Source: Candidatus Eiseniibacteriota bacterium (GTDB lineage Bacteria; Patescibacteriota; Microgenomatia; Levybacterales; UBA12049). From it: 64,000 nt of DNA. The first letter of the stretch is position 1. Every line of letters begins with the position of its first letter. The translations under genes and the position numbers were made by a program. The notes beneath the pieces were generated by a model that had not been told where the DNA came from, searched no databases, and was given only the letters and a program-made list of their open reading frames with translations. This document shows, in pieces, positions 15,911 to 48,853 of this stretch. The stretch is from positions 11,551 to 75,550 of the forward strand of contig DASQJJ010000006.1 of NCBI GenBank assembly GCA_035631115.1. The letters run 5' to 3'.

Positions 15911-16441
15911 TTATATTCCAGGATAAATTACCGCTAATCGCTTTTCTGGGATACCCAGTATTTCCATAGCATCTTTTTTTGTTGCTTTCGAGATGCAGAT
16001 AATTCTCTCCACTTCTTTTTTAACCCACTCTAATCTTGCTTTCTGAACTTTCACTATCTTCGCGTCTGTTTCTTGTGGGTATGTGTATACAATCATGTCG
16101 TACAAAATGGTAACTTTCTTTGCTTTGGTTGGAGGCTGTGTCCAATCGGATGAAATAAATACATCTACCGGACCAATAAGCCATTCTATCGGTACAAGAT
16201 GTAGTTTGTTCCAAAGAATATTTAAAAAGGTTGGTGGAAATTTAAAAATTTTAAATTGAACTTTTGAATTTGATTGAAAATTAAAAATTGAAAATTGAAA
16301 ATTTTTCCGCATTGAGGAATAGAAAAGAATATACTCGTTTTCTTTATCCTGTTGAACCAAGTTCTGAACAAGATTAGTAAGGTATGTTGCCACCCCTGTC
16401 CCCTGATAGGCTAGTTGAGAAATATCTATTCCAATTTTCAT
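15911..16441 (-). CDS. GT4 N-terminal-domain-only protein (truncated paralog or remnant); contains heptamer repeat tract
   Basis: 176 aa; MKIGIDISQLAYQGTGVATYLTNL...RLAVIYPGI then stop, 3 bp before the next full GT4 start; low-complexity insert RKNFQFSIFNFQSNSKVQFKIFKF encoded by the 16229..16305 repeat. Confidence 0.5.
   Translation of the reverse strand: MKIGIDISQLAYQGTGVATYLTNLVQNLVQQDKENEYILFYSSMRKNFQFSIFNFQSNSKVQFKIFKFPPTFLNILWNKLHLVPIEWLIGPVDVFISSDWTQPPTKAKKVTILYDMIVYTYPQETDAKIVKVQKARLEWVKKEVERIICISKATKKDAMEILGIPEKRLAVIYPGI
16229..16305. repeat. AT-rich imperfect heptamer tract, (TTGAAAA)-type x4 at 16274..16301, in-frame inside CDS 15911..16441
   Basis: tttgattgaaaattaaaaattgaaaattgaaaatttttcc; about 36/38 identity to the core of the 18466..18526 repeat. 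Confidence 0.8.
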
Positions 16442-16659
16442 ATCTTCTTTTTATTGTGAAGCAAAAAAAGAAAAATTGCCAGAAGTAAGCATATACCACC
16501 ATAGTAGGTAAATCTTTCCGCAGTAAAAAATACCCAGGAAGCAAAAAGCGGCATAGAAATAACTATACATCCTAACCCAGCTGCTACTACATAATAAGGA
16601 TTTCTCTTCCAAAGAAGGAAAGCGAGAAAAATAACAAAGATAATATCCTGAATTTTCAT
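16438..16659 (-). CDS. small two-TM membrane protein (DUF2304-like partner of polyprenol-phosphate GT2)
   Basis: 73 aa, two hydrophobic helices; immediately downstream of and 4-bp overlapping a GtrB-like GT2, the usual context of DUF2304. Confidence 0.35.
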   Translation of the reverse strand: MKIQDIIFVIFLAFLLWKRNPYYVVAAGLGCIVISMPLFASWVFFTAERFTYYGGICLLLAIFLFLLHNKKKI

Positions 16660-17627
16660 GTACCAATAACGATTTCTTCTTTACTTCTTGTATCACTCCT
16701 ATACCTCAAGCGGAAATGTGTTGCATGATCTACGGTAGAAAATCGTGTCATGGTATTAAGAAAAAGATCTGCCAAAAATCCTGCAACAAGCACTTGAAGT
16801 CCTGCCAACAACAAAACTATTCCCAAAAAAAGCAAAGGTCTTGTTCCTATAGAATGTCCAGAGAAATGCACAAAAGAAAGGTAAACCAAAACGATAATGC
16901 CAATAAAAGAGAGAATACCTCCTAGCATACCAAAGAAGTGCAAAGGTCTTCTTCCATACTTTGTTAGGAAAAGCATAGTAAGAATATCTGGTAAATCTTT
17001 CCACAATTTCGAAAATCCATACTTTGATTTACCATATGCCCTTTCGCTATGGGCAACAGCAACCTCTGTAACAATAAATCCTTCTCCAAAAACAAGGAGT
17101 GGAATAAAGCGATGCATTCCTCCATATAGACGAAGACTCTTTGCTGCATCACTTGTGTAGAGTTTAAGACCACAATTGTAGTCGTGAAGTTGCAATCCCC
17201 AAAAAATGCTTGCAAAAAAATTAAATAACCTTGATGAAACCACTTTTTGTATTGGATCTTTTCTTTTTTTTCTCCATCCACAGACAAGGTCGTATCCTTC
17301 TCTTGCTTTTTTATAGAGTGTTTGGATTTCCTCTGGTCTATCTTGTAAATCCGCATCGAGAGTAACAATATATTCTCCTTTTGCCATTTGAAATCCAAGC
17401 GTTAATGCTTCTGATTTTCCCTGATTTTTCCTAAAGGAAAAGAGTTTTATTTTTTTATCTCTCTGAGTCATTTTCTTAAGAAAATCAAGACTTCCATCTG
17501 TAGACCCATCATCAATGAAAAGTATTTCGTATTGCTTGTCTAGTTTCTGCAGGGCTTTTTGCAATTCTGGAAGAAAGTGGGGCAGACTCTCGTATTCATT
17601 AAAAACAGGAATAACTGCACTAATCAT
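16656..17627 (-). CDS. polyprenol-phosphate sugar synthase (GtrB/ArnC/DPM1-like GT2 with C-terminal TM pair)
   Basis: MISAVIPVFNEYESLPHFLPEL...YEILFIDDGSTDGS...VTLDADLQDRPEEI...CGWRKKRKD plus two C-terminal TM helices (LHFFGMLGGILSFIGIIVLVYL / LLFLGIVLLLAGLQVLVAGFLADLF). Confidence 0.75.
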   Translation of the reverse strand: MISAVIPVFNEYESLPHFLPELQKALQKLDKQYEILFIDDGSTDGSLDFLKKMTQRDKKIKLFSFRKNQGKSEALTLGFQMAKGEYIVTLDADLQDRPEEIQTLYKKAREGYDLVCGWRKKRKDPIQKVVSSRLFNFFASIFWGLQLHDYNCGLKLYTSDAAKSLRLYGGMHRFIPLLVFGEGFIVTEVAVAHSERAYGKSKYGFSKLWKDLPDILTMLFLTKYGRRPLHFFGMLGGILSFIGIIVLVYLSFVHFSGHSIGTRPLLFLGIVLLLAGLQVLVAGFLADLFLNTMTRFSTVDHATHFRLRYRSDTRSKEEIVIGT

Positions 17628-19684
17628 CCTTGTATTTTACCATTTTTACCCATAAATAAGCCAGCATATCCAAAAAGTACCAGTAATCCTGCCACAATAA
17701 GAGTGGCTATACTTATTTGTACTCCCTGCTCTACCCATTGCTGAGGCTTGTACACAATAGTTATGTCGTAATTTCCATCTTTGGGCAAGATGAAGCTATT
17801 AAATCTTTTGTCAAAGAGTGTGGAGTCAATCGATTTTCCTCCCACTTGTGCCTGCCAGAATGGGTCGTACATATCCGAGAAAATAAGCATTTCCCCTTTT
17901 GTAACATTTTGCACATTAACAGCATATTGAGTTGTTGCATTTTGCATAAAAAAACTTTTTCCTTGCCCTGTCAGCCAAAAATGATTCTTTACTTGACTCA
18001 GGGCGAATACATGTATTTTTCCAAAACCATTAAGTTCAGTAAGATACGACAATCTACGTACTTCTCTTACAGTATCCAAATAAACTTTCTGGTCGTATTT
18101 TCTATCGGTGAGAAAAAACTCACCCTGACTATCATATGGGACCACGACATACCCAATACTTGCTTCTCGCAATTCATTCTCTGTTTTGTTTTCATGTAAT
18201 GCATCTAACACTCCGGATATACTTGCAACGTTAAAAAAGTTATACGCGTCAACAGAAGGATGATTTTCCGAAATGTGTGCACCGAATTTTTGTGGTTGTG
18301 GTACCCAAAGTATGCGGCCAAAACTACTTTGATTATTTAAAAATGTGTCAAGCGTAGTATATTCCTTAGGAAAAGTATGTTGCTGAAATGTCCCCCCAAG
18401 CTGTCCAACAACAGCTGGCCGAACTAGAAAAACCAGACAGCCTACGAAAAGTAAGAAAAACATAATTTGAAAATTGAAAATTTTTGGTTTGATTGAAAAT
18501 TTAAAATTGAAAGTTGAAAATTTTTCTTTTTGAGATAACCAATTAGATGTTTTAAAAATAGTAAATGGAATCAATACCGAATATGATATTGCAATTATCA
18601 TGTACCACTTGGTCGGGTCTCGAAACATAATAAAACCAGGTACATGATCAAAAAGCCAAATGTACGTATTGCCAAATGGATCATTTGCGCCTTTTGCCAG
18701 AAATACTCCAAGCAGTCCAATTAATGAAAAGAATAAAATAGCTAGTTTTTCTTTCTTTTGCTTGATATCTATGAAAAATAATGATCCAAAGGCAAGAATC
18801 GGGAGCAAAAGAAATTCCCACCTCATAAAATGAGTAAAACCAAATATATTTTCAGGCCAATTTGGATGCAAAAGACCTAGCGCATCCTCAAATTTTGCAA
18901 AACTAAAAAATTGAATTGATTTTGAAGATGTGTAAATATCACCAAATTGACGAATTGCCTTCCCATGCGTAAGAAGTGTTGGTAAGAGCCAAAATGCATG
19001 GAGACCAATAATAAGTATTCCGGAAAGAGTAAAAAGAAGGAAATATTTTTTTACTTTTTCTCCAGTGAGGCCTGGTAATTCAAAAACGAATCTCAGCGTG
19101 AGAAGAAAAAGCAGTATATATCCAATACGGATATCTAAAAGAAAAATAAGAGAAAAAACCAAAGAAAAAATAACTGCACTTCTCAGTGTAATTTTTTGAA
19201 GGAGTTCTTCGAATGCGATAAAACCAAATGGAGCAAGACTGTAGGATAAGGCAATACCTGTTTGGCCTCCTCCTACTAAAAGAAGTGCATATGTGTTGGC
19301 GATATAAAGAAACCCCGCCAAAAGAGCAAAAACCTTTGACTTAAAAAAATAAAAATACAGAGACCATGCAGAAAGAAAACCAAAAAGAAGATATGGCCAA
19401 AACCAAAATATTTTTTCATACCAATTCCAACCTAGAAAGAGTGCCGTTTTTATTGTGGCAAGAAAATAAGATTCTAACCATAGCGTTGATAAATTGCTTG
19501 CACCCATTCCCATATGTCTTCCATCCCATGCAGGGAGATTGTTAATGTCAAGAATTGCTCGGTTCCAATAATAAACCCAGTCTCCACTTACGAGTAAATT
19601 CCCGGAAAACCAATTTTTGAAGACAAGCAGCAGGGGTATAAAAATAACAACAAAAAGAATAAATGTACCCAAGAATTTTTTCAT
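17624..19684 (-). CDS. large polytopic membrane protein, YfhO-like/GT-C-like, C-terminal beta domain + TM anchor; contains heptamer repeat tract
   Basis: 686 aa; about 10 N-terminal TM helices, C-terminal ...DPFWQAQVGGKSIDSTLFDKRFNSFILPKDGNYDITIVYKPQQW... then TM anchor, like the YfhO C-terminus; in-frame low-complexity insert KFSTFNFKFSIKPKIFNFQ from repeat 18466..18526. Confidence 0.5.
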   Translation of the reverse strand: MKKFLGTFILFVVIFIPLLLVFKNWFSGNLLVSGDWVYYWNRAILDINNLPAWDGRHMGMGASNLSTLWLESYFLATIKTALFLGWNWYEKIFWFWPYLLFGFLSAWSLYFYFFKSKVFALLAGFLYIANTYALLLVGGGQTGIALSYSLAPFGFIAFEELLQKITLRSAVIFSLVFSLIFLLDIRIGYILLFLLTLRFVFELPGLTGEKVKKYFLLFTLSGILIIGLHAFWLLPTLLTHGKAIRQFGDIYTSSKSIQFFSFAKFEDALGLLHPNWPENIFGFTHFMRWEFLLLPILAFGSLFFIDIKQKKEKLAILFFSLIGLLGVFLAKGANDPFGNTYIWLFDHVPGFIMFRDPTKWYMIIAISYSVLIPFTIFKTSNWLSQKEKFSTFNFKFSIKPKIFNFQIMFFLLFVGCLVFLVRPAVVGQLGGTFQQHTFPKEYTTLDTFLNNQSSFGRILWVPQPQKFGAHISENHPSVDAYNFFNVASISGVLDALHENKTENELREASIGYVVVPYDSQGEFFLTDRKYDQKVYLDTVREVRRLSYLTELNGFGKIHVFALSQVKNHFWLTGQGKSFFMQNATTQYAVNVQNVTKGEMLIFSDMYDPFWQAQVGGKSIDSTLFDKRFNSFILPKDGNYDITIVYKPQQWVEQGVQISIATLIVAGLLVLFGYAGLFMGKNGKIQG
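18466..18526. repeat. AT-rich imperfect heptamer tract, (TTGAAAA)x2 + tttgattgaaaatttaaaattgaaagttgaaaattttt, in-frame inside CDS 17624..19684
   Basis: read directly; shares a ~40-bp near-identical core with 16268..16305. Confidence 0.8.
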
Positions 19685-19690
19685 GTATTT

Positions 19691-20725
19691 TTAGAAACCT
19701 CTTACAGTATATACCTGTTTTAGGGTCTTGGAATATTCCTTTACTCTTCCTCGTCCTTTTACATTTTGAATATATATGTCTCTTACTAATTTTAAAACAA
19801 ATTTCGGAGTGCAATATGCTGCAATAAGAGTTGCCCAATAACGCATAGACCATGTATATGAAGGATTAAGCTCTCTAAGTCTTTTAGCGTACTTAAGAAG
19901 ATTGCTATTGTTTGAGTTGTATTTAATTATTGCTAAAAAATTAACATTTATTGCAACCTGCCTATTCAGTGTTTTTCTATAACATTTTTCTCCTGCCACT
20001 TTTCGGATAACTTCATATACTTTTTCCCATGATAACTTACCATTTACAACAAAATGTGCTGGGTGTTTGTCTTGATGAGACCAGGAAGCAACAATAGAAT
20101 GAGAGTACAAGAAAAAGCCTCCTTGTGCCTCAAGACTTCTAAAACATATTTCAAACCATGGAATAAATTCTGAATCGATTATGGAAATTCTTTTGGGATA
20201 TATATTTTTAAAAACGATTCCTGTTATAAAGTGCAGATCAATTTTATCTATATAATCAACCGCTTCCTCAGGACTTGCATGGGCCTTAAATGCAAGGTCT
20301 TTCGTAATAAATTTGTTTCTTACGTAGTCAAATATATCTTTCTTGTCAAAGGTTTGATAGACATAATTAATTCGAATAAGTCCATAATTATACTTTTTAA
20401 TAAGGTCGTATGTCTTCTGTAGAACATCATCATACAAAAGATAATCATCATCACCGTGAAGAAATACATATTCTCCTCTTACATATTCCAAAACTTTTCC
20501 AATATTTTTGACAGCTCCAAGATTTTTCTTATTACGGTAATAACGAATTCTCTTATCCTTAAGGGACATGATGCGTTTTTGCGTTTCGTCTGTTGACCCA
20601 TCGTCACAGACAATAACTTCAAAATCCTTGAATGACTGCGCAAGGATCCTTTTTACTGCAAACTCTACATCTTCTGCTCTATTGTAGGTTGCGATGGGTA
20701 TTGAAAAAAATGGTCTTTTATTCAT
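19691..20725 (-). CDS. glycosyltransferase family 2 (GT-A)
   Basis: FSIPIATYNRAEDVEFAVKRILAQSFKDFEVIVCDDGSTDET. Confidence 0.75.
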   Translation of the reverse strand: MNKRPFFSIPIATYNRAEDVEFAVKRILAQSFKDFEVIVCDDGSTDETQKRIMSLKDKRIRYYRNKKNLGAVKNIGKVLEYVRGEYVFLHGDDDYLLYDDVLQKTYDLIKKYNYGLIRINYVYQTFDKKDIFDYVRNKFITKDLAFKAHASPEEAVDYIDKIDLHFITGIVFKNIYPKRISIIDSEFIPWFEICFRSLEAQGGFFLYSHSIVASWSHQDKHPAHFVVNGKLSWEKVYEVIRKVAGEKCYRKTLNRQVAINVNFLAIIKYNSNNSNLLKYAKRLRELNPSYTWSMRYWATLIAAYCTPKFVLKLVRDIYIQNVKGRGRVKEYSKTLKQVYTVRGF

Positions 20726-21821
20726 GTAATTTTTCTATCATTCTCAATGCCGTAACAAATCTTTGCCTGTCATTTTCTATACCTTTTGCATTATAGTACC
20801 CAGATACCGACCTTGTCGCAACTTTTACAAGCATAATCCGAAGAAAGTAAAACCAAAAGAGATATGAGGATTGTAATACACTGCTATCCATACCCAAACC
20901 ATTACAAAAGCTTTGAAAATACTTTTGCTGCTTTTTCTCAAAAAGAAATGTATTAACAAAAGCAACTTCCCATAATAGATCCCCTATTATTGTATCTTCC
21001 CAATCAAGAATTGCCTTTATTTTTGTCTTATGGAAAATTACATTTCTCGTAGCAAGATCGTTGTGAATAAGTACCATTGGTCTTTCATTAAGATTCATTG
21101 AATTTTCCGAAAAGATTCTTTCTATGATTTGCTTTGATTTTTTTGTAATTACTTTTAACGAATAGGTTTTGCTAATATGCTTTGATAAGTTTGTATAAAA
21201 AAATTCTTCCCAATTAGATGAGATTCCTGAAAATTCTCCTTTTTTTAAAAGTGCTGTCATACTAAGCAGCCCAACTCCCTTCAATGGAATCGAATGAATT
21301 TTTTTAAGTACTCTTCCTAAATTTGTATATACGTCATTTAACGCAGAGTATCTTTTATCTTCTAGCGTATCTCCTTCTATAAATTCCATAATCATAAAGT
21401 CAAACGGATAGTATTTTCGTGAAACATCAACTAAAAATATTTTCACTGATGGCATATGAAGCTGTTTCAAGGCATTCTGTATTTTTTCTTCTGTAAAAAA
21501 TGTAAAATCTGTATAAAGACTTTGCAAAGCACTCACACGTAACACATATGTATGTTTTTTTGTGACCACCTTATACAAAACGTGGTATGTACTTTTTGTA
21601 GAAATTAAAGAATACTGCATAACAGTTTCATTACATGAGTCACGGAAAATAGTATTAATATATAGTGGAATACTCGCAAAGATTTTTTCTTTCTCTTTTA
21701 TCAACTCTTGCTCCAAAAAAAGAATGTCTGCCTTGGGATAAAATACTTTCTTACGAATAGAAGAAAAGTGTTTTAAAGAATTCTCGGAGAAATTAAAACT
21801 TTTTGTAGTCAAAGTATTCAT
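20718..21821 (-). CDS. APH/choline-kinase-fold phosphotransferase (putative sugar or small-molecule kinase)
   Basis: 367 aa; beta3 Lys (VLYKV...YVLRV), hinge FMIMEFIEGDTLE, catalytic loop LIHNDLATRNVIF, and ILDWEDTIIGDLLWEVA (the D-W-E region). Confidence 0.6.
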   Translation of the reverse strand: MNTLTTKSFNFSENSLKHFSSIRKKVFYPKADILFLEQELIKEKEKIFASIPLYINTIFRDSCNETVMQYSLISTKSTYHVLYKVVTKKHTYVLRVSALQSLYTDFTFFTEEKIQNALKQLHMPSVKIFLVDVSRKYYPFDFMIMEFIEGDTLEDKRYSALNDVYTNLGRVLKKIHSIPLKGVGLLSMTALLKKGEFSGISSNWEEFFYTNLSKHISKTYSLKVITKKSKQIIERIFSENSMNLNERPMVLIHNDLATRNVIFHKTKIKAILDWEDTIIGDLLWEVAFVNTFLFEKKQQKYFQSFCNGLGMDSSVLQSSYLFWFYFLRIMLVKVATRSVSGYYNAKGIENDRQRFVTALRMIEKLHE

Positions 21822-22710
21822 TCATGTATGTTGTCAGTGATTTTATCTCATCATGCTCTTTTTTTGACAACTCTTTTATTTTTTCTATGTTGTATGCAAC
21901 CGTTGGGTATTGAATTGTTCCCCATGGATATTGATTGTCTAATTTTTTACCATTCCAGGAAGGATACAAAAGATTTTCTTCAAAGGGTATTCCTAATGTT
22001 GTAGAAAGGGTTGTAAAAAACTTTTTAGGGTTTGCGATAAGGTCCTCAAATTTTACAGTAATCACATTATTAGGAAAAAGAGTTGCATAATTAATCGCAG
22101 ATAGCTGAGTGACATTCCACGTATGTATATACCGTTGCAAAGATAATGGAGCAGGTCTATGCTTTGTTTCTGCATACGCAGAGTATGGATTTCTTACAAT
22201 GTGAATTATTTTTGCATTTGGAAAATCTGCAATAATTTTCTCTGCATCCAGAATTTGTACAGGATTATATCCAACATATATTTCCTCTTTTCCGCTACCA
22301 TTATAATTTTTCCATGCCAAAAATGTTGATTTGTAAAATGCCTCTATAGCGTTTGCCCTGGTAATATTTTTTCCTAGAAGCTTTACGAAGATTTTCTTTC
22401 TTTCTTTGTCATTTAAAGAAATTTGCACTTCTTTAAATTTACTCATGTGTGGTGCTTTTGTCCTAACTTTTACTTCTTCATCCCAAATATCTTCATACAT
22501 TTGCTCCGGTGTTTCCCCTAACTGAAATTGAGACCATCTATATTTATGGGGAACAAAAGAAGATAAGTAGTCACATATATTTTTTGTCCCTACTTGTGAT
22601 TCAAAAGGGTATACAAAAAGTTTGGAATGTCCATCAAGATGTCTCTGTAGTGTATTTCCACCATTCTCATACATAGCGGAAATCATAAAAAGTTTGAAAG
22701 ATTTTGCCAT
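21793..22710 (-). CDS. sulfotransferase-like protein
   Basis: 305 aa; N-terminal FMISAMYENGGNTLQRHLDGH resembles the PAPS 5-prime phosphate-binding loop of Sulfotransfer_3; KIIHIVRNPYSAYAETK resembles the 3-prime phosphate-binding RNPrD..S motif. Confidence 0.45.
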   Translation of the reverse strand: MAKSFKLFMISAMYENGGNTLQRHLDGHSKLFVYPFESQVGTKNICDYLSSFVPHKYRWSQFQLGETPEQMYEDIWDEEVKVRTKAPHMSKFKEVQISLNDKERKKIFVKLLGKNITRANAIEAFYKSTFLAWKNYNGSGKEEIYVGYNPVQILDAEKIIADFPNAKIIHIVRNPYSAYAETKHRPAPLSLQRYIHTWNVTQLSAINYATLFPNNVITVKFEDLIANPKKFFTTLSTTLGIPFEENLLYPSWNGKKLDNQYPWGTIQYPTVAYNIEKIKELSKKEHDEIKSLTTYMNEYFDYKKF

Positions 22711-22714
22711 ATTT

Positions 22715-23713
22715 TTATTTTATAGAGAGCTTATCATAATGTATTTCTTCCTGCCAAGCAACAGTTAATTCCAAACCTTCTTTAAGAGAATATTCTGGTC
22801 TCCATCCCAAAATTCTTTTAATTTTTGCATTGTTTCCAAACCAATCTATAATATCCCAATTTCTATTTTTCATCGTAGAAAATTGTGGATTTTCAGAAAT
22901 TTCAAACATTTTCTTTACCATAAAGGCAAGTGTTTTTATTTTTGTTTTCTTACCCGTTGCAACATTAAATACCTCACCATACATTCTTTTTTGCATTTTT
23001 GCCGCACTTATCACAAAAGCGGAAACAACATCATCTATGTAGATAAAGTCACGAGATATCTTAGGGTCAACAAAATTTGGCAACGTCTTATGTATTGCCT
23101 TGGAAACCAAAACAGGCATTAGCCTATCAGGCTCTTCCCAAGGTCCATATGCCGAATACAGCCTCAGATGCACCACAGGAAGGTGCTCTACTTTTCCATA
23201 GTACTTGAGCAAATAATAATTCCCAACCTTAGAAACAGCGTAATGGCTATTTGGGATAAGCTCTCCTGTTTCTTTTGGACCCTTTGCATTGAGGCCATAT
23301 TCAGACTGGGACCCCGCATGGATATATGCTTTAAATGGTATCTTTTTTAACTCCTCGAGAATATTTACTGTAGAGAGCGCATTTGTCTTATATATTTCCT
23401 TATAGTCACTTTGCTTTGCATATGCACCGTATGCTGCTAAGTTAAAAACAGTAAGCGGTTTTACTTTCTTAAATATTTTTTCTATGTCTTTTGTATTTGT
23501 AATATCAGAATCAATAATATTTTTTGTAGGTATTTTTGCAAGGCGAAATCTCCAATTCTTTTTTTTATTTCTTGAAACTCCAAAAACATCTTTTCTATAT
23601 GTAAGAAGCGTCTTTAGAAGGTTAACTCCAATAAATCCTCCACTTCCCAGGATAAGAATTGGTCCATGGAGTTTTTTTATGTGGGCACGTAGCGATGCGC
23701 GGCTTTGTCTCAT
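22715..23713 (-). CDS. NAD(P)-dependent sugar epimerase/dehydratase/reductase (extended SDR)
   Basis: ILILGSGGFIGVNLL Rossmann motif; catalytic YAVSKVGNYYL (YxxxK). Confidence 0.75.
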   Translation of the reverse strand: MRQSRASLRAHIKKLHGPILILGSGGFIGVNLLKTLLTYRKDVFGVSRNKKKNWRFRLAKIPTKNIIDSDITNTKDIEKIFKKVKPLTVFNLAAYGAYAKQSDYKEIYKTNALSTVNILEELKKIPFKAYIHAGSQSEYGLNAKGPKETGELIPNSHYAVSKVGNYYLLKYYGKVEHLPVVHLRLYSAYGPWEEPDRLMPVLVSKAIHKTLPNFVDPKISRDFIYIDDVVSAFVISAAKMQKRMYGEVFNVATGKKTKIKTLAFMVKKMFEISENPQFSTMKNRNWDIIDWFGNNAKIKRILGWRPEYSLKEGLELTVAWQEEIHYDKLSIK

Positions 23714-24216
23714 CTAATTAAATTAACATACCAAGGCTTGTTTTCTTTTAGTATTTTTTTAACAACCTGAGGAATCTCATCTATTGTTTTGGGCCACAAA
23801 GGAGTAATGTTGGAAAAAATCTTCATCACTTCTTTATCTTCTTCTACCCAGTGAGTAATGCCATCTTCTTTATAGTTTCTTTCTCTACCCGAACCAATCA
23901 ACCTAACAGGCGCAGATTCGTAGTTGATGTAATTTCTTATTGTTTCAAAGGGTCTATACAAAAGAAATGTTGTTGCTGTATACACAAGGGGTATTTTTCC
24001 CTCTTGTGCCAATCCTACAGCTATTCCTATCATTGCCTGCTCCGATGCACCTACATTAATAAATCTATTTGGAAAATCACGTCTCACATCATCCCACATG
24101 CGATAACCAAAATCACCAACAATAACCCAAATGTCTTTATTTTTTTTCATATGCTTATATACTTCATGGGCAAATGCAGCCCGCATCAATCTTTTATAAA
24201 TTGGTATTATTTTCAT
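23710..24216 (-). CDS. transketolase C-terminal section (pyrimidine-binding domain only, short)
   Basis: 168 aa; ...WVIVGDFGYRMWDD...INVGASEQAMIGIAVGLAQEGKIPLVYTATTFLLYRPFE... matches the Transket_pyr domain; lacks the usual C-terminal TKC domain. Confidence 0.65.
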   Translation of the reverse strand: MKIIPIYKRLMRAAFAHEVYKHMKKNKDIWVIVGDFGYRMWDDVRRDFPNRFINVGASEQAMIGIAVGLAQEGKIPLVYTATTFLLYRPFETIRNYINYESAPVRLIGSGRERNYKEDGITHWVEEDKEVMKIFSNITPLWPKTIDEIPQVVKKILKENKPWYVNLIR

Positions 24217-24983
24217 ATACGTAACATCTTGAGTGCTTTTTCGTAATCATTTTCATTCATTGCATAATAATGTGCATCCTGTCCTTTAAGAAAAGGTAGC
24301 TGGTCACTTGTTGTATGAGCAAATACAAGCATAGACTTTGATGATTTTACTTGTAATGCTCTCATAATTTCCTTCATATCATGGCCTTGTACTTCAATGG
24401 ATTTTATTCCAAATGCTTTTAGTCTTTGATAGAGTTTTTTTGTTTCTATTGCGCTAAATGCACCCCATCCATTTGCATTGACAATAATTTTTAGATTAGG
24501 AATTTCTAAGTCAACAATTATTCTTAATGCCTCCCAAATACTTCCCTCTGCACACTCACCGTCTGAGATAGCGCAGTATATTGTTCTTTTTTTATTAGCA
24601 AGTGCTATACCAATTGCAATAGGTAAGCCTTGACCAAGACTACCTGATGACACGTGAATATCTATTTCTGGATTTCTATCTGGATGAATATGAAGTTCTT
24701 GTATACTGTCTTTGTCTTTTATTTTTTTATACTTTTCTAGAATTGTGTATAGAGCAATTCCAGCATGACCATTGGACAAAATAAATTTGTCATTTCTTTT
24801 TTTTATCTTATAGATGCAATCAATAATATCGACAACACTCAAACATGATCCAATGTGTGACAAATTTTGAGCATAGCTTATTTCAAGAATTCTTTTCCTT
24901 GTTTCTTTCTGCTCTTTTGTAAGAAGACTAAGATTAAATCTTTTCATTGACTCATGAGGACAGGTACATGCAATTATACACAA
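24213..24983 (-). CDS. transketolase N-terminal section (ThDP-binding)
   Basis: SNGHAGIALYTILEKY...HPDRNPEIDIHVSSGSLGQGLPIAIGIALANK...CAISDGECAEGSIWEAL...NANGWGAF, ThDP-binding fold; probable true start at MKRFNLSLL (~24947). Confidence 0.75.
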   Translation of the reverse strand: MCIIACTCPHESMKRFNLSLLTKEQKETRKRILEISYAQNLSHIGSCLSVVDIIDCIYKIKKRNDKFILSNGHAGIALYTILEKYKKIKDKDSIQELHIHPDRNPEIDIHVSSGSLGQGLPIAIGIALANKKRTIYCAISDGECAEGSIWEALRIIVDLEIPNLKIIVNANGWGAFSAIETKKLYQRLKAFGIKSIEVQGHDMKEIMRALQVKSSKSMLVFAHTTSDQLPFLKGQDAHYYAMNENDYEKALKMLRI

Positions 24984-25059
24984 AAACTCTTCCTTGTATA
25001 GAGCATATCTACATTGATGTCTTGCAAAGAGAGTGGTCTCTTGAGAAAATGCAGAGCAT

Positions 25060-25767
25060 ATGACAATAACCTACTCTATTATTCTTCCTATTTATCACCA
25101 ATCAAACCAAATAGAGACACTTGTCTCGTCCTATGGAAATGGTCTTAAAAGACTTAAAGATTCATTTGAAATTATTCTTGTCATTAATGGTGCAGATACA
25201 GAGTCATACGATATTGCCAAAAAACTTACACAAAAAAATTCCTTTTTAAAAGTTGTCTATTTGAAAGATGCCGGCTGGGGAAATTCAATTATTGAAGGAA
25301 TAAAGACTGCACAGGGTAAATTTATTTGTTATACAAATTCAGCCAGAACAAGAATTTCTGATTTAATTACTATTCTTACCTACTCTAAAAACAATCCATC
25401 GGTTGTTATTAAAGCAACAAGAATACTTCACCTCAATCTTTTACGAAAGCTCGGATCCACCCTGTACAACATTGAATGCCGATTGCTTCTCCATACTCCT
25501 GTATGGGATGTTAATGGTACTCCAAAAGTAATGCCATCTCATGTTGCGAAAAAGATAGGCCTTACATCCAAAGGAGATTTGATTGACGCAGAGCTTATCG
25601 CAAAATGTGTATGGAATAATATTCCTATACTCGAGGTTCCTATTCTTTTTCCACCGAGATTTGGAGGAAATAGTACAACGCGGGTATTTTCTGCATTAAA
25701 AATGTATGCAGGCGTTTTGCAAATTAAAGATATGCTAAAAAGACAGACTTCTTTACGAAAAAAGTAA
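25060..25767 (+). CDS. GT2-family glycosyltransferase (short DPM/GtrB-like form)
   Basis: 235 aa; YSIILPIYHQSNQIETLVSSY...EIILVINGADTES...WDVNGTPKVM; only plus-strand gene within the first 31 kb; overlaps the convergent 900-aa gene by 44 bp. Confidence 0.55.
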   Translation: MTITYSIILPIYHQSNQIETLVSSYGNGLKRLKDSFEIILVINGADTESYDIAKKLTQKNSFLKVVYLKDAGWGNSIIEGIKTAQGKFICYTNSARTRISDLITILTYSKNNPSVVIKATRILHLNLLRKLGSTLYNIECRLLLHTPVWDVNGTPKVMPSHVAKKIGLTSKGDLIDAELIAKCVWNNIPILEVPILFPPRFGGNSTTRVFSALKMYAGVLQIKDMLKRQTSLRKK

Positions 25768-28426
25768 CTCCCAACCATAGTAAAAATCCACCCAAGGAAA
25801 ATATTGTTACAAAAAATCCAAGCAGAAATGTCTTTGAAAAAAATGAAAAAACATAGGTGTGTTGTCCCGGCCTTGTCTTAACTTCTAAAAATCTATTGTT
25901 TTCCAAGTGAGCTTTTTTCCCATCAATAGTAACACTCCACCCGGGGTAATAACTTTCCAAAAGTGAAAGAATCGCAGGCTGATCACTCCCTTCTCTAATT
26001 GTTATTGTATTTACTCCAAAAGAGGCTATTGTTTTTTTTATTACCTCTCCTTTATTTGTAATAAGTTGTGAGAATGGGCGCGCATCATGCACTTTGAATA
26101 TTATTGTGTCCTCATTTACATACGCCTTAGTAGAATCCCACGGAAGACTTGTGACAATATTGTGCGGAGAAATTACGTATCCTGGCAATATATCGTGATA
26201 TGTAGATGGTGGAGGATAAGAAACATGAGTATAACTGCTTACCAAACTATTCTTAAGCAGCAATCCATAATTTGTATTGAGAAGGAGTGTATTATACTGA
26301 TATGCCAAGTCATAGGGTACAAGATGAATATTATTTACAACTAGCACGAGAGATTGATTAGCATTATCCTTTTGTATCCATTTAAAAACATCCGAGTAGA
26401 GAGGGTAATTCAATGTGTCAATTTTTTGATCTGTAACCAACTGGGGCTTTATTAAAATAGTCTCAAAGAAAATGATGGCTACCACAAGATTTAATACGAG
26501 AACAACAAGTATCAATATTTTTCTTTTACTTAGAAAGTCACGACAGAATAGTCCAAAGAAAAGAAGAAGAATCACAGAAAGATAAGCAAAGATTCTACTT
26601 GGGACTCGATAGTACTGCAAAAAACTAACTGCACTAACTAACCAATGAAAAGGATTCCATTTCCACGCAGGCATGGAAATAGAAATAAAGAGCAAGAAGA
26701 GAATGGGTAGCAAAATATACTTTCTGCTCAATACGATTTTTCTTTTAAGGAATACCCACACAAAACCTAAAAGGGTAAATGGACCAATAAACGAAATTTT
26801 CTCCAAATCTCCCCATGCTGTAGATATATATTGTTTCAAATTAACAGCGGCAAATGGAGCATCAAACGGAATAAAAATATACCTAAGCATTCCAACGATA
26901 TTCATGCTTCCAGTAAAAGGATCTCTGCTTTTCTCAAGATAGTTTGTCAATTCAAGATAGGGAATAATTTTTACTGATGCAAAAAGAAGAAAAAACAAAA
27001 CAGAAATTCCCAGATAGACTGATGCCCTTTTATCTTTAAAAAGAAAAAAGATAAGGATTACCCCCAATCCATACAGAGTATACGTTGCTGTGTATGTTTC
27101 TCCAGAAAACAAGAATAGTGCGATTTCTAATCCCGCGACTCCTGACCAAAATAGATTTTTTTTATCTATTACTTTTTGCAATGAAAAAATCACAAATGGC
27201 AATAATGGATACGATAGTGTTTTTTCAATTTGCCCAGTATCTAATTTTGCTGCTAGATAAGAACTCGATGCATATGTCAGCGCAATAAACAAAGATAAAT
27301 ATGAAGAGTTAAGATACCTTTTCGTAAGTATATACATAGATTCACAGGCAAAAAATATAACAAGAAGGTACATAATTTTTAATGCAGTATCGTAGGGAAA
27401 TACAAGAAGAGGAATAGCAACCAACGGGTTATATACTCCATAGAGAGGATCTGCAACAGTAGGTATTCCCTGAACAACATATGGGTTCCATAAGGGAAAG
27501 GCATGATGTTGTAAGAGAGAGTTTTTAAAATAAAGATGAGGAACATCATTTCCATTCAAGTCATTCGCCCTTACGACATGCGTTGTTAGGAGAATGGGGC
27601 TTAGAATGATAATACTAAAAAGGAAAAATAATACGTGTAAACCAAATGCGCGTACATATTTATTTTTTATCTCGAAAAATATGGGTATTTTTTCATCCTC
27701 TTTGGTTATGGAGATTCTTTTTTTGGAACTTTTTCTTCGTGAATACACTATTAGCGCGATTGTCCTAACAATTTTTTGTATTGTATCTTGTATTGTTGTA
27801 TCTAGTTTTTGACCATTTCTTTTATTGAGCACGTAAAGAAAGTAAACAAACAAAGGAATAAGATAGATACTCGACAATACGAGCGAATCTGGATTAGAAA
27901 AAAGCATGCGCGTTCTCTTAAAAAATAAGAATAAAAAGTCTTTTGGAGAATATAAGAATTGCTTGGAGTATACATATTTACTTGTAAAGAAATCTCCCAC
28001 ATTCAGAGTATTCGGAGAAGCATTTGGTATTGTTGTAACAAACTCATATTGTCTTCCCTTTGAATTTGTAATTGAAGGAAATCCAAATACAAGAAAACCC
28101 TTTTCATTTACCTGATTTACCTCTGTTTGGGTAGAGTAAAACGAATGTGAATTATTTTTTTCTCTTAGTGCAAATGTAATCAGACCGCGGCCAGTACTAT
28201 TTGGCTTTATCTCCCCTACAACTCTTATAGCAATAATACCTAAGTTATTTTCCTCTGCAATAAATGATCCAGTTGTTCTATTGGCCTTATCATTTTGTTG
28301 AGATAAAGAATGCTTATACACAATTATGGTAAAAGGACTATAGGGATTAATAAAAATAGCGGCAAAAAACCAAAAAATGATGTAAATAAATATTGCGAGA
28401 AATTGTAATCTATATTTTGTGATCAT
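25724..28426 (-). CDS. YfhO-like polytopic membrane glycosyltransferase candidate with extra N-terminal TM + beta-rich domain
   Basis: 900 aa. The N-terminal ~230 aa (…ENNLGIIAIRV…FGFPSITNSKGRQYEFVT…) is paralogous to the standalone 28442..29554 protein. This is followed by a multi-TM core and a C-terminal SYYPGWSVTIDGKKAHLENNRFLEVKTRPGQHTYVFSF plus TM anchor, the YfhO hallmark. Confidence 0.55.
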   Translation of the reverse strand: MITKYRLQFLAIFIYIIFWFFAAIFINPYSPFTIIVYKHSLSQQNDKANRTTGSFIAEENNLGIIAIRVVGEIKPNSTGRGLITFALREKNNSHSFYSTQTEVNQVNEKGFLVFGFPSITNSKGRQYEFVTTIPNASPNTLNVGDFFTSKYVYSKQFLYSPKDFLFLFFKRTRMLFSNPDSLVLSSIYLIPLFVYFLYVLNKRNGQKLDTTIQDTIQKIVRTIALIVYSRRKSSKKRISITKEDEKIPIFFEIKNKYVRAFGLHVLFFLFSIIILSPILLTTHVVRANDLNGNDVPHLYFKNSLLQHHAFPLWNPYVVQGIPTVADPLYGVYNPLVAIPLLVFPYDTALKIMYLLVIFFACESMYILTKRYLNSSYLSLFIALTYASSSYLAAKLDTGQIEKTLSYPLLPFVIFSLQKVIDKKNLFWSGVAGLEIALFLFSGETYTATYTLYGLGVILIFFLFKDKRASVYLGISVLFFLLFASVKIIPYLELTNYLEKSRDPFTGSMNIVGMLRYIFIPFDAPFAAVNLKQYISTAWGDLEKISFIGPFTLLGFVWVFLKRKIVLSRKYILLPILFLLFISISMPAWKWNPFHWLVSAVSFLQYYRVPSRIFAYLSVILLLFFGLFCRDFLSKRKILILVVLVLNLVVAIIFFETILIKPQLVTDQKIDTLNYPLYSDVFKWIQKDNANQSLVLVVNNIHLVPYDLAYQYNTLLLNTNYGLLLKNSLVSSYTHVSYPPPSTYHDILPGYVISPHNIVTSLPWDSTKAYVNEDTIIFKVHDARPFSQLITNKGEVIKKTIASFGVNTITIREGSDQPAILSLLESYYPGWSVTIDGKKAHLENNRFLEVKTRPGQHTYVFSFFSKTFLLGFFVTIFSLGGFLLWLGVTFFVKKSVFLAYL

Positions 28427-48851: not shown

Positions 48852-48853
48852 AT

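What the first reader, a model, noticed from the sequence alone, without database searches (positions are those of the whole stretch)
20718..24983. Embedded module: APH-fold kinase, sulfotransferase-like protein, SDR, and split transketolase (N and truncated C sections)
Five consecutive co-directional genes with 4-29 bp overlaps sit within the glycan operon. A ThDP-dependent transketolase split pair beside an SDR suggests two-carbon ketol transfer onto a sugar or sugar-nucleotide, giving a branched or chain-extended sugar. The APH-like kinase and the sulfotransferase-like protein (RNPYSAY 3-prime-PB-like motif) suggest phosphorylated or sulfated glycan decoration. The C section is only 168 aa, lacking the usual C-terminal domain. 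Split transketolases in polysaccharide loci are known to occur but remain functionally unassigned.
Basis: partly seen in the sequence, partly recalled or inferred. Interest (0 to 1): 0.6.

Follow-up and report, generated by a model that had tools for sequence, protein, structure and literature searches.

The report
Conserved transketolase-type sugar-tailoring gene cassette
The five genes are real and form a variant of a widespread, uncharacterised gene cassette (split transketolase-like enzyme plus ketoreductase, optionally with a sulfotransferase-fold protein and a kinase) that most likely builds an unusual, probably carbon-branched, sugar for the cell surface.

Summary
Five co-directional minus-strand genes at 20718-24983 encode TK-N, a 168-aa TK-pyr subunit, an extended SDR, a sulfotransferase-fold protein and an APH-fold kinase.

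Comparative data change the reading in four ways.

- The 168-aa subunit is not a truncation. It is a complete Pyr domain from a family of over 1,700 length-conserved proteins, with dN/dS about 0.07 against the closest relative.
- The invariant unit is the split TK plus a ketoreductase, usually followed by an ArnC/GtrB-like polyprenyl-phosphate glycosyltransferase.
- The sulfotransferase-fold gene is a specific accessory of that unit. 20 of 22 long loci anchored on it carry the TK pair. The kinase follows it directly in about half of loci.
- In Chthonomonas and Acidobacteriota the cassette begins with CDP-glucose synthase and a CDP-glucose 4,6-dehydratase-like SDR.

Best explanation (inferred, not shown): the TK-like enzyme adds a two-carbon ketol to an activated keto-sugar and the SDR reduces it. 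The ST and kinase then sulfate or phosphorylate it, or activate a hydroxyl. The product is loaded on polyprenyl phosphate.

No PAPS-supply genes were found in the sequence examined. The ST lacks the canonical catalytic Lys/Arg. TK-type sugar branching has only been proposed in Streptomyces antibiotic pathways. I rate this a new variant of a known kind.

The parts
24213..24947 (-). TK-N: ThDP/PP-domain subunit of a split transketolase-like enzyme. The longest ORF runs to a TTG at 24983; the probable true start is the ATG at 24947 (244 aa).
   Evidence: Pfam Transketolase_N 1.9e-13; NCBIfam NF004559 141 bits. Closest solved structure is the split TK 6YAK. H43, H73, H100, H238, GSLGQG, S140-D-G-E143 and N171 are conserved in at least 90% of both short-type and long-type loci. 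Start inferred.
23710..24216 (-). TK-pyr: 168-aa Pyr-domain subunit that naturally lacks the Transketolase_C domain.
   Evidence: Pfam Transket_pyr, profile positions 5-166 of 174. Over 1,700 homologues; the 120 best listed are 158-173 aa. AF2 model pLDDT 87.9; Foldseek TMq 0.79-0.83 to the Pyr domains of DXS, split TK and human TK. The ThDP-activating Glu E59 and H122 are invariant. dN/dS 0.07 against L004.
22715..23713 (-). SDR2: extended SDR of reductase/epimerase type, the obligate partner of the TK pair.
   Evidence: Pfam Epimerase 8e-42. GSGGFIG and YAVSK motifs. GSQSEYG stands in place of the dehydratase T-D-E signature. Adjacent to TK-N in most related loci. Replaced by a classical adh_short SDR where absent.
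21793..22710 (-). Sulfotransferase-fold protein, CurM-ST/TPST-like, with an atypical phosphosulfate loop.
   Evidence: Pfam Sulfotransfer_3 4e-15. Profile hits to OLS-ST 4GOX and CurM-ST 4GBM. AF2 pLDDT 94.6; all significant Foldseek hits are PAPS sulfotransferases. Invariant E15-N-G-G-N19, E37 and R173-N-P. 20 of 22 long ST-anchored loci carry a TK pair.
20718..21821 (-). APH-fold (eukaryotic-like) kinase, accessory to the ST gene.
   Evidence: Pfam APH 1e-21. HNDLATRN and DWE motifs are visible in the translation. Directly downstream of the ST in 26 of 50 loci. Fast-evolving: 36% identity to the L004 copy and few close homologues.
19691..20725 (-). Soluble GT2 glycosyltransferase, co-transcribed, overlapping the kinase gene by 8 bp.
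   Evidence: Pfam Glycos_transf_2 1e-23; weak resemblance to PglI and TuaG. 82% identical and syntenic in L004. No TM segments.
17624..19684 (-). Polytopic membrane protein (at least 9 hydrophobic segments); candidate extracytoplasmic glycosyltransferase.
   Evidence: No Pfam hit. Hydropathy analysis. Syntenic in L004. Overlaps the ArnC-like GT2 gene by 4 bp.
16656..17627 (-). ArnC/GtrB/PgfS-like GT2, a predicted polyprenyl-phosphate sugar synthase.
   Evidence: NCBIfam ArnC model 170 bits and PgfS 126 bits, both below their equivalog cut-offs. C-terminal hydrophobic segments 228-246 and 259-277. This GT2 type lies next to the TK pair in most related loci.
24973..25000 (-). Promoter-like site upstream of TK-N in the divergent intergenic region. 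Suggestive only.
   Evidence: TATACA-16-TATAAT, 10 of 12 matches. The region as a whole has no excess of such sites: 42 found against 51.6 expected.
25060..25767 (+). Divergently transcribed small GT2, syntenic with the cassette.
   Evidence: Pfam Glycos_transf_2. Homologues lie next to the cassette in L004 (364 bits) and L007 (112 bits).

Best explanation
The five genes are the local form of a widespread cassette that tailors an already activated sugar for a surface glycan. Steps 1-4 below are inferred from family knowledge and gene context; none was shown here.

1. Inferred: the heterodimeric TK-like ThDP enzyme (TK-N plus the C-domain-less TK-pyr) forms a ThDP-bound two-carbon carbanion. 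It adds this to a keto group of a nucleotide-linked sugar, or possibly a polyprenyl-phosphate-linked one. In other phyla the likely substrate is CDP-4-keto-6-deoxyglucose. The result is a C-branched sugar bearing a tertiary alpha-ketol.
2. Inferred: the adjacent SDR reduces the new keto group.
3. Inferred: the ST-fold protein and the APH-fold kinase then modify hydroxyls of this sugar, by sulfation and phosphorylation.
4. Inferred: an ArnC/GtrB-like GT2 loads the product on polyprenyl phosphate, and polytopic membrane glycosyltransferases transfer it outside the cell.

Shown here: gene identities, intact catalytic motifs, purifying selection, and the conserved co-occurrence of these genes.
For: 1. 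The catalytic apparatus is intact and conserved.
- Four His, the SDGE...N ThDP/metal motif, the activating Glu59 and H122 are conserved in at least 90% of both short and long family members.
- dN/dS is 0.07-0.21 for the TK genes.

2. The TK pair always has a ketoreductase partner.
- Nearly every one of the 42 TK-anchored loci has an extended SDR adjacent.
- Where it is absent, a classical adh_short SDR is present instead.
- This mirrors YerE/YerF, and DesAB with DesC or DesE.

3. Context points to an activated sugar.
- An ArnC/PgfS-like GT2 lies next to the pair.
- The core has no kinase or nucleotidyltransferase, so the substrate is already activated.

4. In Chthonomonas and Acidobacteriota the cassette is preceded by glucose-1-phosphate cytidylyltransferase (385 and 345 bits against a cut-off of 300) and a CDP-glucose 4,6-dehydratase-like SDR. 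RfbF is present in 9 of 22 long loci.

5. The residue that reads the acceptor's 2-hydroxyl in classical TK (Asp469 in E. coli TK numbering, quoted from my own knowledge) is not conserved in the long family. The His461 equivalent is Gly. The two phosphate-binding Arg equivalents are kept.

6. There is chemical precedent.
- The split TK DesAB cleaves a ring-borne tertiary alpha-ketol (PMC3735941, PMC12065433).
- Split TKs are proposed to hydroxyacetylate keto-sugars in miharamycin and amipurimycin biosynthesis (PMC12247030).

7. ST linkage: 20 of 22 long ST-anchored loci contain the TK pair.
Against: - No biochemical data exist for any member, and TK-type addition to a sugar ketone has never been shown in vitro (PMC12247030).
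- The window has no 4,6-dehydratase signature SDR and no CDP-glucose synthase. The keto-sugar source in this organism is therefore unknown.
- The donor is undetermined: ketose phosphate, hydroxypyruvate or pyruvate. At fold level the TK-pyr resembles DXS as closely as TK.
- The ST lacks the phosphosulfate-loop Lys/Arg, and no PAPS-supply genes were found.
- The kinase is poorly conserved.
Confidence: 0.5

Rival explanations
1. The pair is an ordinary pentose-phosphate transketolase that happens to lie in a glycan operon.
For: Best family hits are transketolase models. The catalytic His and Glu, and both phosphate-binding Arg equivalents, are retained.
Against: - It scores far below every transketolase equivalog cut-off: 141 against 488 bits.
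- It lacks the C-terminal domain.
- The His461 equivalent is lost.
- It is consistently linked to an SDR, an ArnC-like GT2, methyltransferases and the ST across phyla, never to pentose-phosphate genes.
Confidence: 0.03
2. The chemistry is the same, but the donor is pyruvate as in DXS or E1 enzymes. The enzyme would decarboxylate pyruvate and install an acetyl or 1-hydroxyethyl branch (yersiniose-like) rather than a hydroxyacetyl branch.
For: DXP_synthase_N and E1_dh Pfam hits are nearly as strong as Transketolase_N. Foldseek ranks DXS structures level with split TK for the Pyr subunit. Known sugar-branching ThDP enzymes use 2-keto acids (PMC12247030).
Against: NCBIfam transketolase models score much higher than dxs: 141 against 41.5 bits for TK-N and 59.7 against 39.4 for TK-pyr. 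The closest sequence relative among solved structures is a split TK. The His pair that binds the donor C1-hydroxyl in TK (H43, H238) is conserved in at least 90% of family members.
Confidence: 0.15
3. The TK pair and SDR make a free ketose or alditol phosphate building block. The kinase and other enzymes then activate it, as for CDP-ribitol or CDP-arabinitol. They would not modify an NDP-sugar.
For: Classical TK substrates are sugar phosphates, and the phosphate-binding Arg equivalents are retained. An APH-fold kinase is present here. L026 carries an inositol-monophosphatase-family gene beside the pair.
Against: - Most TK-anchored loci have no kinase and no nucleotidyltransferase next to the pair.
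- Half of the ST-anchored loci lack the kinase.
- The partner is usually an extended, NDP-sugar-type SDR.
- The adjacent ArnC-like GT2 needs an NDP-sugar donor.
- Where a nucleotidyltransferase is present, it is a glucose-1-phosphate cytidylyltransferase paired with a 4,6-dehydratase-like SDR.
Confidence: 0.12
4. Branching and reduction take place after the ArnC-like GT2 has made a polyprenyl-phosphate sugar. This would resemble DprE1/DprE2 acting on decaprenyl-phospho-ribose, or ArnD acting on undecaprenyl-phospho-Ara4FN.
For: The CPR core cassette (SDR, TK pair, ArnC-like GT2) contains no enzyme that obviously supplies an NDP-keto-sugar. The retained Arg residues could bind the lipid-linked phosphate.
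Against: TK-N, TK-pyr and SDR2 are soluble proteins with no membrane segments. In other phyla the cassette is fed by CDP-glucose enzymes, which places the chemistry at nucleotide-sugar level.
Confidence: 0.1

Closest known systems
YerE/YerF pathway for yersiniose A (CDP-3,6-dideoxy-4-keto-glucose plus a ThDP-dependent carboligase, then a reductase) in Yersinia O-antigen
   Same: - A CDP-glucose synthase and a 4,6-dehydratase-like SDR lie upstream in the Chthonomonas and Acidobacteriota versions.
- A ThDP enzyme works with a ketoreductase.
- The product is destined for a surface glycan.
(PMC12247030)
   Different: - The ThDP enzyme here is a split transketolase-family heterodimer, not a decarboxylase/acetolactate-synthase-family flavoenzyme.
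- No E1/E3 3-deoxygenation genes are present; an ST-fold protein and a kinase occupy that position.
- The product is handed to an ArnC-like polyprenyl-phosphate GT2.
Split-gene transketolases proposed for hydroxyacetyl branching in miharamycin and amipurimycin biosynthesis (Streptomyces)
   Same: A split TK next to an oxidoreductase, proposed to add a C2 ketol to a keto-sugar (PMC12247030).
   Different: - Those are in secondary-metabolite clusters, all from Streptomycetes, and are uncharacterised in vitro.
- This cassette is in envelope-glycan loci of Patescibacteria, Omnitrophota, Acidobacteriota and Armatimonadota.
- The beta subunit here lacks the C-terminal domain.
DesAB steroid-17,20-desmolase with DesC or DesE (Clostridium scindens and relatives)
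   Same: A split TK acting on a tertiary alpha-ketol attached to a ring carbon. It is paired with a side-chain ketoreductase whose family varies between organisms (PMC3735941, PMC12065433). Here too the reductase partner is either an extended or a classical SDR.
   Different: DesAB works catabolically, in the cleavage direction, on steroids. It has a full-length C subunit and sits in no glycan context.
Split transketolase of Carboxydothermus hydrogenoformans (PDB 6YAK/6YAJ)
   Same: Closest solved relative by sequence for both subunits (E 8e-19 and 6e-18) and by fold (TMq 0.82, 30% identity).
   Different: Its C chain is 341 aa in the PDB sequence record (299-311 residues resolved in the chains) and includes the Transketolase_C domain. 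The window protein ends at the last strand of the Pyr domain, right after the Arg equivalent to R520 in E. coli TK numbering.
CurM-ST and OLS-ST activating sulfotransferases, and tyrosylprotein sulfotransferases
   Same: - Best profile and fold matches for the ST-like protein.
- Same strand-loop-helix phosphosulfate motif position.
- The R-x-P-Y-S 3'-phosphate motif is present.
- A Glu aligns with the catalytic Glu of CurM-ST.

   Different: - The loop Arg/Lys (PRSGTT or PKSGTT) is replaced by an invariant Asn in ENGGNT.
- Identity is only 10-17%.
- The protein is free-standing and embedded in a sugar pathway.
Arn/Gtr-type three-component glycosylation (ArnC or GtrB GT2, flippase, GT-C transferase)
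   Same: An ArnC/PgfS-like GT2 with C-terminal membrane segments lies adjacent to a polytopic membrane protein. Many PMT_2- and YfhO-like genes are in the window.
   Different: The sugar delivered is made by a TK plus SDR rather than by ArnA/ArnB. No flippase was identified. GT2 scores are below the equivalog cut-offs.

Membership tests
Transketolase superfamily (ThDP-dependent; PP plus Pyr domains) | PP domain with a GDG-X(25-30)-N ThDP/Mg2+ motif and catalytic histidines | tested here: met
   S140-D141-G142...N171, with Ser replacing the first Gly. H43, H73, H100 and H238 are conserved in at least 90% of 43 short-type and 26 long-type sequences. Pfam Transketolase_N is above its cut-off.
Transketolase superfamily (ThDP-dependent; PP plus Pyr domains) | Pyr domain with the cofactor-activating glutamate | tested here: met
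   E59 in G-A-S-E-Q is invariant. The model superposes on the Pyr domains of split TK, DXS and human TK at TMq about 0.8.
Canonical transketolase EC 2.2.1.1 (pentose-phosphate enzyme) | Three-domain architecture including Transketolase_C | tested here: not met
   The protein ends at the Pyr domain, as do 45 family members of 150-190 aa.
Canonical transketolase EC 2.2.1.1 (pentose-phosphate enzyme) | Score above the curated equivalog cut-offs, plus substrate-binding residues His461 and Asp469 (E. coli numbering, quoted from my own knowledge) | tested here: not met
   Best model 141 bits against a cut-off of 488. The His461 equivalent is Gly. The Asp469 equivalent is present here (D118) but variable in the long family.
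Canonical transketolase EC 2.2.1.1 (pentose-phosphate enzyme) | Transfers a ketol between sugar phosphates | not testable with these tools
   Needs an enzyme assay.
PAPS-dependent sulfotransferases | Sulfotransferase fold | tested here: met
   AF2 pLDDT 94.6. All 28 Foldseek hits at E<=1e-3 are sulfotransferases. Pfam Sulfotransfer_3 57 bits.
PAPS-dependent sulfotransferases | 3'-phosphate-binding motif (R-x-P ... S/T) | tested here: met
   R173-N-P-Y-S...T182 is invariant and aligns with V-R-H-P-Y-S of CurM-ST and OLS-ST.
PAPS-dependent sulfotransferases | 5'-phosphosulfate loop with catalytic Lys/Arg (PKxGTT or PRSGTT) | tested here: not met
   The loop reads Y-E-N-G-G-N-T. N16 aligns with the Arg of TPST1 (GVPRSGTTL) and is invariant in all 47 sequences. 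The strand-loop-helix geometry is preserved. The alignment in this segment is low-scoring, so the residue equivalence is tentative.
PAPS-dependent sulfotransferases | PAPS supply in the same genome, and sulfate transfer activity | not testable with these tools
   No cysC, cysN, cysD or sat was seen in the scanned ORFs of the 64-kb window, in about 10 kb beyond its start, or by motif in 1.48 Mb of related loci. The whole genome is not available.
APH / eukaryotic-like kinase fold phosphotransferases | Pfam APH above cut-off with the HxDxxxxN catalytic loop and a DxE/DFG-like metal-binding motif | tested here: met
   78.2 bits against a cut-off of 23.2. H-N-D-L-A-T-R-N and D-W-E are present in the translation.
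APH / eukaryotic-like kinase fold phosphotransferases | Known substrate class (aminoglycoside, choline, fructosamine, anomeric sugar kinase) | tested here: inconclusive
   All specific NCBIfam models score far below their cut-offs. The best PDB hits are weak: 3DXP, the ACAD11 kinase domain and hygromycin kinase.
YerE-type branched-sugar carboligases | Decarboxylase/acetolactate-synthase-family ThDP enzyme (TPP_enzyme_N/M/C) | tested here: not met
   The architecture is TK-N plus Transket_pyr. There is only a weak TPP_enzyme_C hit within the PP domain. This is an analogue, not a member.
ArnC/GtrB-type polyprenyl-phosphate glycosyltransferases (gene 16656-17627) | GT2 catalytic domain plus two C-terminal transmembrane helices, with a score at family level | tested here: inconclusive
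   ArnC model 170 bits against a cut-off of 529; PgfS 126 against 500. Hydrophobic segments at 228-246 and 259-277. The lipid-phosphate acceptor cannot be tested.

The most novel reading that the evidence does not exclude
The ST-fold protein and the kinase may not be decorating enzymes. They may be hydroxyl activators, installing sulfate or phosphate as a leaving group on the TK-branched or 4-keto sugar. Elimination or ring closure would then give a deoxy, unsaturated or bicyclic branched sugar. This would be an oxygen- and PMP/iron-sulfur-independent alternative to the E1/E3 deoxygenation step of the 3,6-dideoxyhexose and yersiniose pathway.

Three observations fit this reading:
- The two genes sit where E1/E3 would sit, between the 4,6-dehydratase-like SDR and the SDR-TK genes.
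- The ST's nearest relatives include sulfation-then-elimination enzymes: CurM-ST, OLS-ST, retinol dehydratase and LGS1.
- The kinase's best, though weak, structural relative is the ACAD10/11-type kinase domain. That this domain phosphorylates a hydroxyl for elimination is from my own knowledge.

The invariant Asn in the phosphosulfate loop could also mean a donor other than PAPS. That would matter in reduced genomes without sulfate activation.
Probability: 0.15. Interest if true: 0.85.

Novelty: new variant of a known kind. Interest (0 to 1): 0.6.

Why it matters
ThDP-dependent C-branching of sugars is established only for YerE-like and E1-like enzymes. For transketolases it is an untested proposal limited to 13 Streptomyces antibiotic clusters (PMC12247030).

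This cassette would extend TK-type sugar chemistry in two ways:
- To cell-envelope glycans of many poorly known phyla: Patescibacteria, Omnitrophota, Elusimicrobia, Acidobacteriota and Armatimonadota.
- To hundreds of metagenomic loci.

It also offers three practical handles:
- A minimal TK (about 244 plus 168 aa, without the C-terminal domain) for enzymology and biocatalysis of tertiary alcohols.
- A large sulfotransferase-fold family with an altered catalytic loop that is genetically tied to the TK.
- A cultured host, Chthonomonas calidirosea, in which the product sugar could be identified.

If sulfation is real in Patescibacteria, it raises the question of where PAPS comes from in such reduced genomes.

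Tried and rejected
**Literature**
- Searches for transketolase together with O-antigen, capsule, CDP-glucose, cytidylyltransferase, sulfotransferase or undecaprenyl phosphate found nothing describing this cassette.
- One search failed on term syntax.
- The primary amipurimycin paper (PMC6774755) is not held, so the proposal is cited from the review.

**Truncation or pseudogene for the 168-aa subunit: rejected**
- The family is length-conserved.
- It shares invariant residues with the long form.
- dN/dS is 0.07.
- The SDR gene starts within 4 bp of the stop, leaving no remnant.

**ST belongs to a different P-loop family: rejected**.

**PAPS-supply genes**
- Pfam scans of most ORFs of at least 120 aa in the window found none.
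- The region beyond the window start has none.
- Regex motifs over 1.48 Mb of loci gave only CysD/CysH-like hits, in L130 and L106.
- This cannot settle the question without whole genomes.

**Look-ups that returned nothing**
- The 100%-identical APH record (P0241) and the gene near the window's end were not on record, so the region beyond the window's far end was not examined.

**Other negatives**
- No tRNA genes or Rfam families in the window.
- Promoter and terminator scans showed no excess over shuffles.

**Not done**
- The kinase structure was not modelled, because only four close homologues were available.
- ORFs 50476-55392 and 63270-63842 were not scanned.

Full report
**Observation**

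The window carries five consecutive minus-strand ORFs at exactly the reported coordinates:
- TK-N, 24213-24983
- TK-pyr, 23710-24216
- an extended SDR, 22715-23713
- a sulfotransferase-like protein, 21793-22710
- an APH-like kinase, 20718-21821

Junction overlaps are 4, 4 and 29 bp. There is a 4-bp gap between the SDR and ST genes. The kinase gene overlaps the following GT2 gene by 8 bp.

All five reach the Pfam gathering thresholds. No specific NCBIfam equivalog is reached for any of them.

The TTG-extended 5' end of TK-N is probably not translated. Homologues are 238-243 aa. An ATG at 24947 would give 244 aa. A promoter-like TATAAT lies inside the extension. That promoter match is only suggestive, because the region has no excess of such sites.

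The module is the 5' end of a long minus-strand transcription unit. Downstream of the five genes come a soluble GT2, a polytopic membrane protein and an ArnC-like GT2. A small GT2 is transcribed divergently upstream of TK-N.

**Setting**

Most ORFs of at least 120 aa across the 64 kb were scanned, and nearly all that match a family are glycan machinery:
- GT1, GT2 and GT4 enzymes
- PMT_2-, YfhO- and GT87-like membrane transferases
- methyltransferases
- a GDP-mannose-pyrophosphorylase-like protein
- a true GalE
- an initiating sugar transferase

There are no tRNA genes or Rfam families. Beyond the window start lie GlyRS and the dcw cluster, so the island is chromosomal.

Relatives are mainly Microgenomates-type Patescibacteria. 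Database labels for the closest records conflict: "uncultured Gammaproteobacteria" and "Ca. Eisenbacteria".

**The short transketolase subunit is a conserved form, not a truncation**

- The search returned 1,703 homologues; the 120 best listed are 158-173 aa and 62-95% identical.
- In the fetched loci the C-subunit lengths are bimodal: 45 fall at 150-190 aa and 27 at 290 aa or more, mostly 290-345 aa.
- Both classes share the same invariant residues: R12, D35, E59, R88, E91, R94, Y115 and H122.
- The AF2 model (pLDDT 87.9) is a complete Pyr domain. It superposes over 160 of 168 residues on split TK, DXS and human TK at TMq about 0.8.
- Against the syntenic relative L004 the gene has dN/dS of about 0.07. 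Synonymous sites are near saturation, so this ratio is approximate, but pN is far below pS.
- TK-N keeps the four catalytic histidines, GSLGQG, an S-D-G-E...N ThDP/metal motif and N171 in both classes.
- Two features differ from classical TK, using E. coli residue numbers from my own knowledge. The His461 equivalent is Gly, and the Asp469 equivalent is variable in the long family. The equivalents of the phosphate-binding Arg358 and Arg520 are retained, the latter as the very last residue of the short protein.

**What the TK pair travels with**

In the 42 genome loci anchored on the short subunit, the recurrent neighbours are an extended SDR and a GT2 of about 315 aa. That GT2 scores as PgfS/ArnC-like, at 239 and 157 bits.

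Where the extended SDR is missing, a classical adh_short SDR follows the pair. An extra gene between the SDR and TK-N in some loci is a SAM methyltransferase.

The window's SDR has GSQSEYG and YAVSK, so it lacks the T-D-E dehydratase signature and is a reductase/epimerase type.

A ketoreductase partner of interchangeable family is what one expects if the TK product is a ketone that must be reduced.

**The ST and kinase belong to the same system**

In the TK-anchored set only L004 and L007 carry them. Anchoring on the ST gives the opposite view.

- All five long contexts fetched showed ST, APH and an SDR followed by TK_N. Four of the five also showed a full-length TK_C and a GT2; in the fifth (Gottesmanbacteria, L049) the locus ends just past TK_N. 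These contexts include cultured Chthonomonas calidirosea, an Acidobacteriota contig, a Gottesmanbacteria MAG and two unnamed assemblies.
- A metagenome scan found 459 relatives. Counting the 85 ST-anchored loci (80 kept from that scan plus the five contexts above), 20 of 22 loci of at least 15 kb carry TK-N within 10 kb.
- 26 of 50 loci have the kinase directly downstream of the ST.
- The rest run ST, SDR, TK-N, TK-C directly.
- 9 of 22 long loci carry a glucose-1-phosphate cytidylyltransferase.
- In Chthonomonas and the Acidobacteriota contig that enzyme exceeds its equivalog cut-off: 385 and 345 bits against 300. It is followed by a CDP-glucose 4,6-dehydratase-like SDR at 215-227 bits, just under the cut-off of 278.

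**Nature of the ST-like protein**

- The family is large (2,407 hits) and about 50-55% identical across phyla.
- A profile search of solved structures finds OLS-ST and CurM-ST, then TPST1.
- The AF2 model (pLDDT 94.6) matches only PAPS sulfotransferases.
- R173-N-P-Y-S aligns with the 3'-phosphate motif of CurM-ST and OLS-ST.
- Y-P-F-E37 aligns with S-P-P-E of CurM-ST, whose Glu I recall as the catalytic base (my own knowledge).
- The phosphosulfate loop reads Y-E-N-G-G-N-T, with N16 in place of the Arg/Lys. This is invariant in all 47 sequences. The strand-loop-helix geometry is kept.
- The alignment in that loop segment is low-scoring, so the residue equivalence is tentative.
- Whether the protein transfers sulfate is open.
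- No PAPS-supply genes were found in the window, in the flank beyond its start, or by motif in the related loci, apart from CysD/CysH-like ORFs in L130 and L106. That is not informative without complete genomes.

**The kinase**

It has the catalytic HxDxxxxN and DWE motifs, but no assignable substrate class. It evolves much faster than its neighbours. It is 36% identical to the L004 copy, against 79-86% for the ST, TK-pyr and GT2 genes. Only four database hits reach E<=1e-10.

**Mechanism (inference)**

The core contains no kinase or nucleotidyltransferase, yet it sits beside a GT2 that needs an NDP-sugar. So the TK and SDR most likely act on an already activated sugar. Where the feeder enzymes are encoded, they make CDP-4-keto-6-deoxyglucose, the classic acceptor type for ThDP-dependent C-branching (YerE; PMC12247030).

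I therefore propose the following sequence:
1. The TK-like enzyme adds a two-carbon ketol to the sugar ketone.
2. The SDR reduces the branch carbonyl.
3. The ST and kinase modify hydroxyls of the product.
4. The ArnC-like GT2 loads the product on polyprenyl phosphate for extracytoplasmic transfer.

Two precedents support this. DesAB is a split TK that handles a ring-borne tertiary alpha-ketol and is paired with a reductase of variable family (PMC3735941, PMC12065433). Split TKs are proposed, though unverified, to hydroxyacetylate keto-sugars in miharamycin and amipurimycin biosynthesis (PMC12247030).

Three points remain unresolved:
- the donor, whether a ketose phosphate, hydroxypyruvate or pyruvate;
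- the keto-sugar source in this organism, since no dehydratase-type SDR or CDP-glucose synthase is in the window;
- whether the chemistry occurs on the nucleotide sugar or on the lipid-linked sugar.

**Rivals**

- A housekeeping transketolase is essentially excluded by score, architecture and context.
- A pyruvate-donor (DXS-like) version and a lipid-linked version are variants of the main idea.
- A free sugar-phosphate route is disfavoured, because the core lacks activating enzymes.
- The most novel reading is that the ST and kinase install leaving groups rather than decorations. It rests on their position in the operon and on the nearest relatives being activation-elimination enzymes. I give it about 0.15.

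**Novelty and verdict**

Split transketolase genes in polysaccharide loci have been noted before without assignment, for example two TK subunits with a methyltransferase and glycosyltransferases in Campylobacter fetus (PMC5013579).

What is new here:
- the definition of a cross-phylum cassette;
- its link to CDP-glucose enzymes and to an ArnC-like GT2;
- the C-domain-less beta subunit;
- the tight genetic coupling of a sulfotransferase-fold family that has an altered catalytic loop.

I rate this a new variant of a known kind (ThDP-dependent sugar branching) and of moderate-to-high interest, because a cultured host and small soluble enzymes make it directly testable.

Noticed in passing
window 20718-21821 vs L004 12357-13469: The APH-like kinase is only 36% identical between the window and its otherwise syntenic relative L004. 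The flanking ST and GT2 genes are 79-82% identical. dN/dS is about 0.4 for the kinase against about 0.08 for its neighbours. This suggests rapid divergence or replacement by a paralogue.
   Followed up: partly
window 24948-24983: The longest TK-N ORF starts at a TTG whose 36-nt extension contains a TATAAT box (24978-24973). The likely start is the ATG at 24947, which has no obvious Shine-Dalgarno sequence.
   Followed up: partly
window 15911-16441 and 14783-15907: A 176-aa ORF has only the N-terminal Glyco_transf_4 half. It lies directly upstream of a complete 374-aa GT4 gene. It may be a split or decayed glycosyltransferase.
   Followed up: no
window 10195-13296, 25724-28426, 29496-31922, 34674-36362, 55472-57406: Several very large ORFs (562-1033 aa) have no Pfam family. 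The one checked by hydropathy (25724-28426, 900 aa) has about ten hydrophobic segments, and it matches genes beside the TK cassette in L003, L004 and L006. These are probably novel GT-C-like transferases.
   Followed up: partly
L026 1843-2745: In a Woesebacteria contig an inositol-monophosphatase-family gene (the family that includes CysQ and IMPase) lies between the short TK pair and a classical SDR. It could be a sugar-phosphate or PAP phosphatase.
   Followed up: no
L130 (about 750-1450 nt from the start of the reverse strand) and L106: CysD-like (SGGKDS) and CysH-like (ECGLH) motif ORFs occur within 10 kb of the ST gene in L130, and a CysH-like motif ORF in L106. These are the only sulfate-assimilation signatures near about 85 ST genes.
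   Followed up: no
L004, L007, L008, L010, P0241: Taxonomic labels of the closest public records conflict. They read 'uncultured Gammaproteobacteria' and 'Candidatus Eisenbacteria', whereas most relatives are Levy-, Davies- and Woesebacteria (Patescibacteria). The labels of the bulk-submitted MAGs look unreliable.
   Followed up: no
window 48090-49064 and 48854-50494: Two co-directional ORFs overlap by 211 bp. The GTG start of the GT2 at 49064 is probably mis-called by the longest-ORF rule.
   Followed up: no
L131 11056-20561 (beyond window position 1): The glycan island abuts RecO, glycyl-tRNA synthetase and the dcw cell-division/cell-wall cluster (MraZ, RsmH, a PBP and three Mur ligases).
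   Followed up: partly
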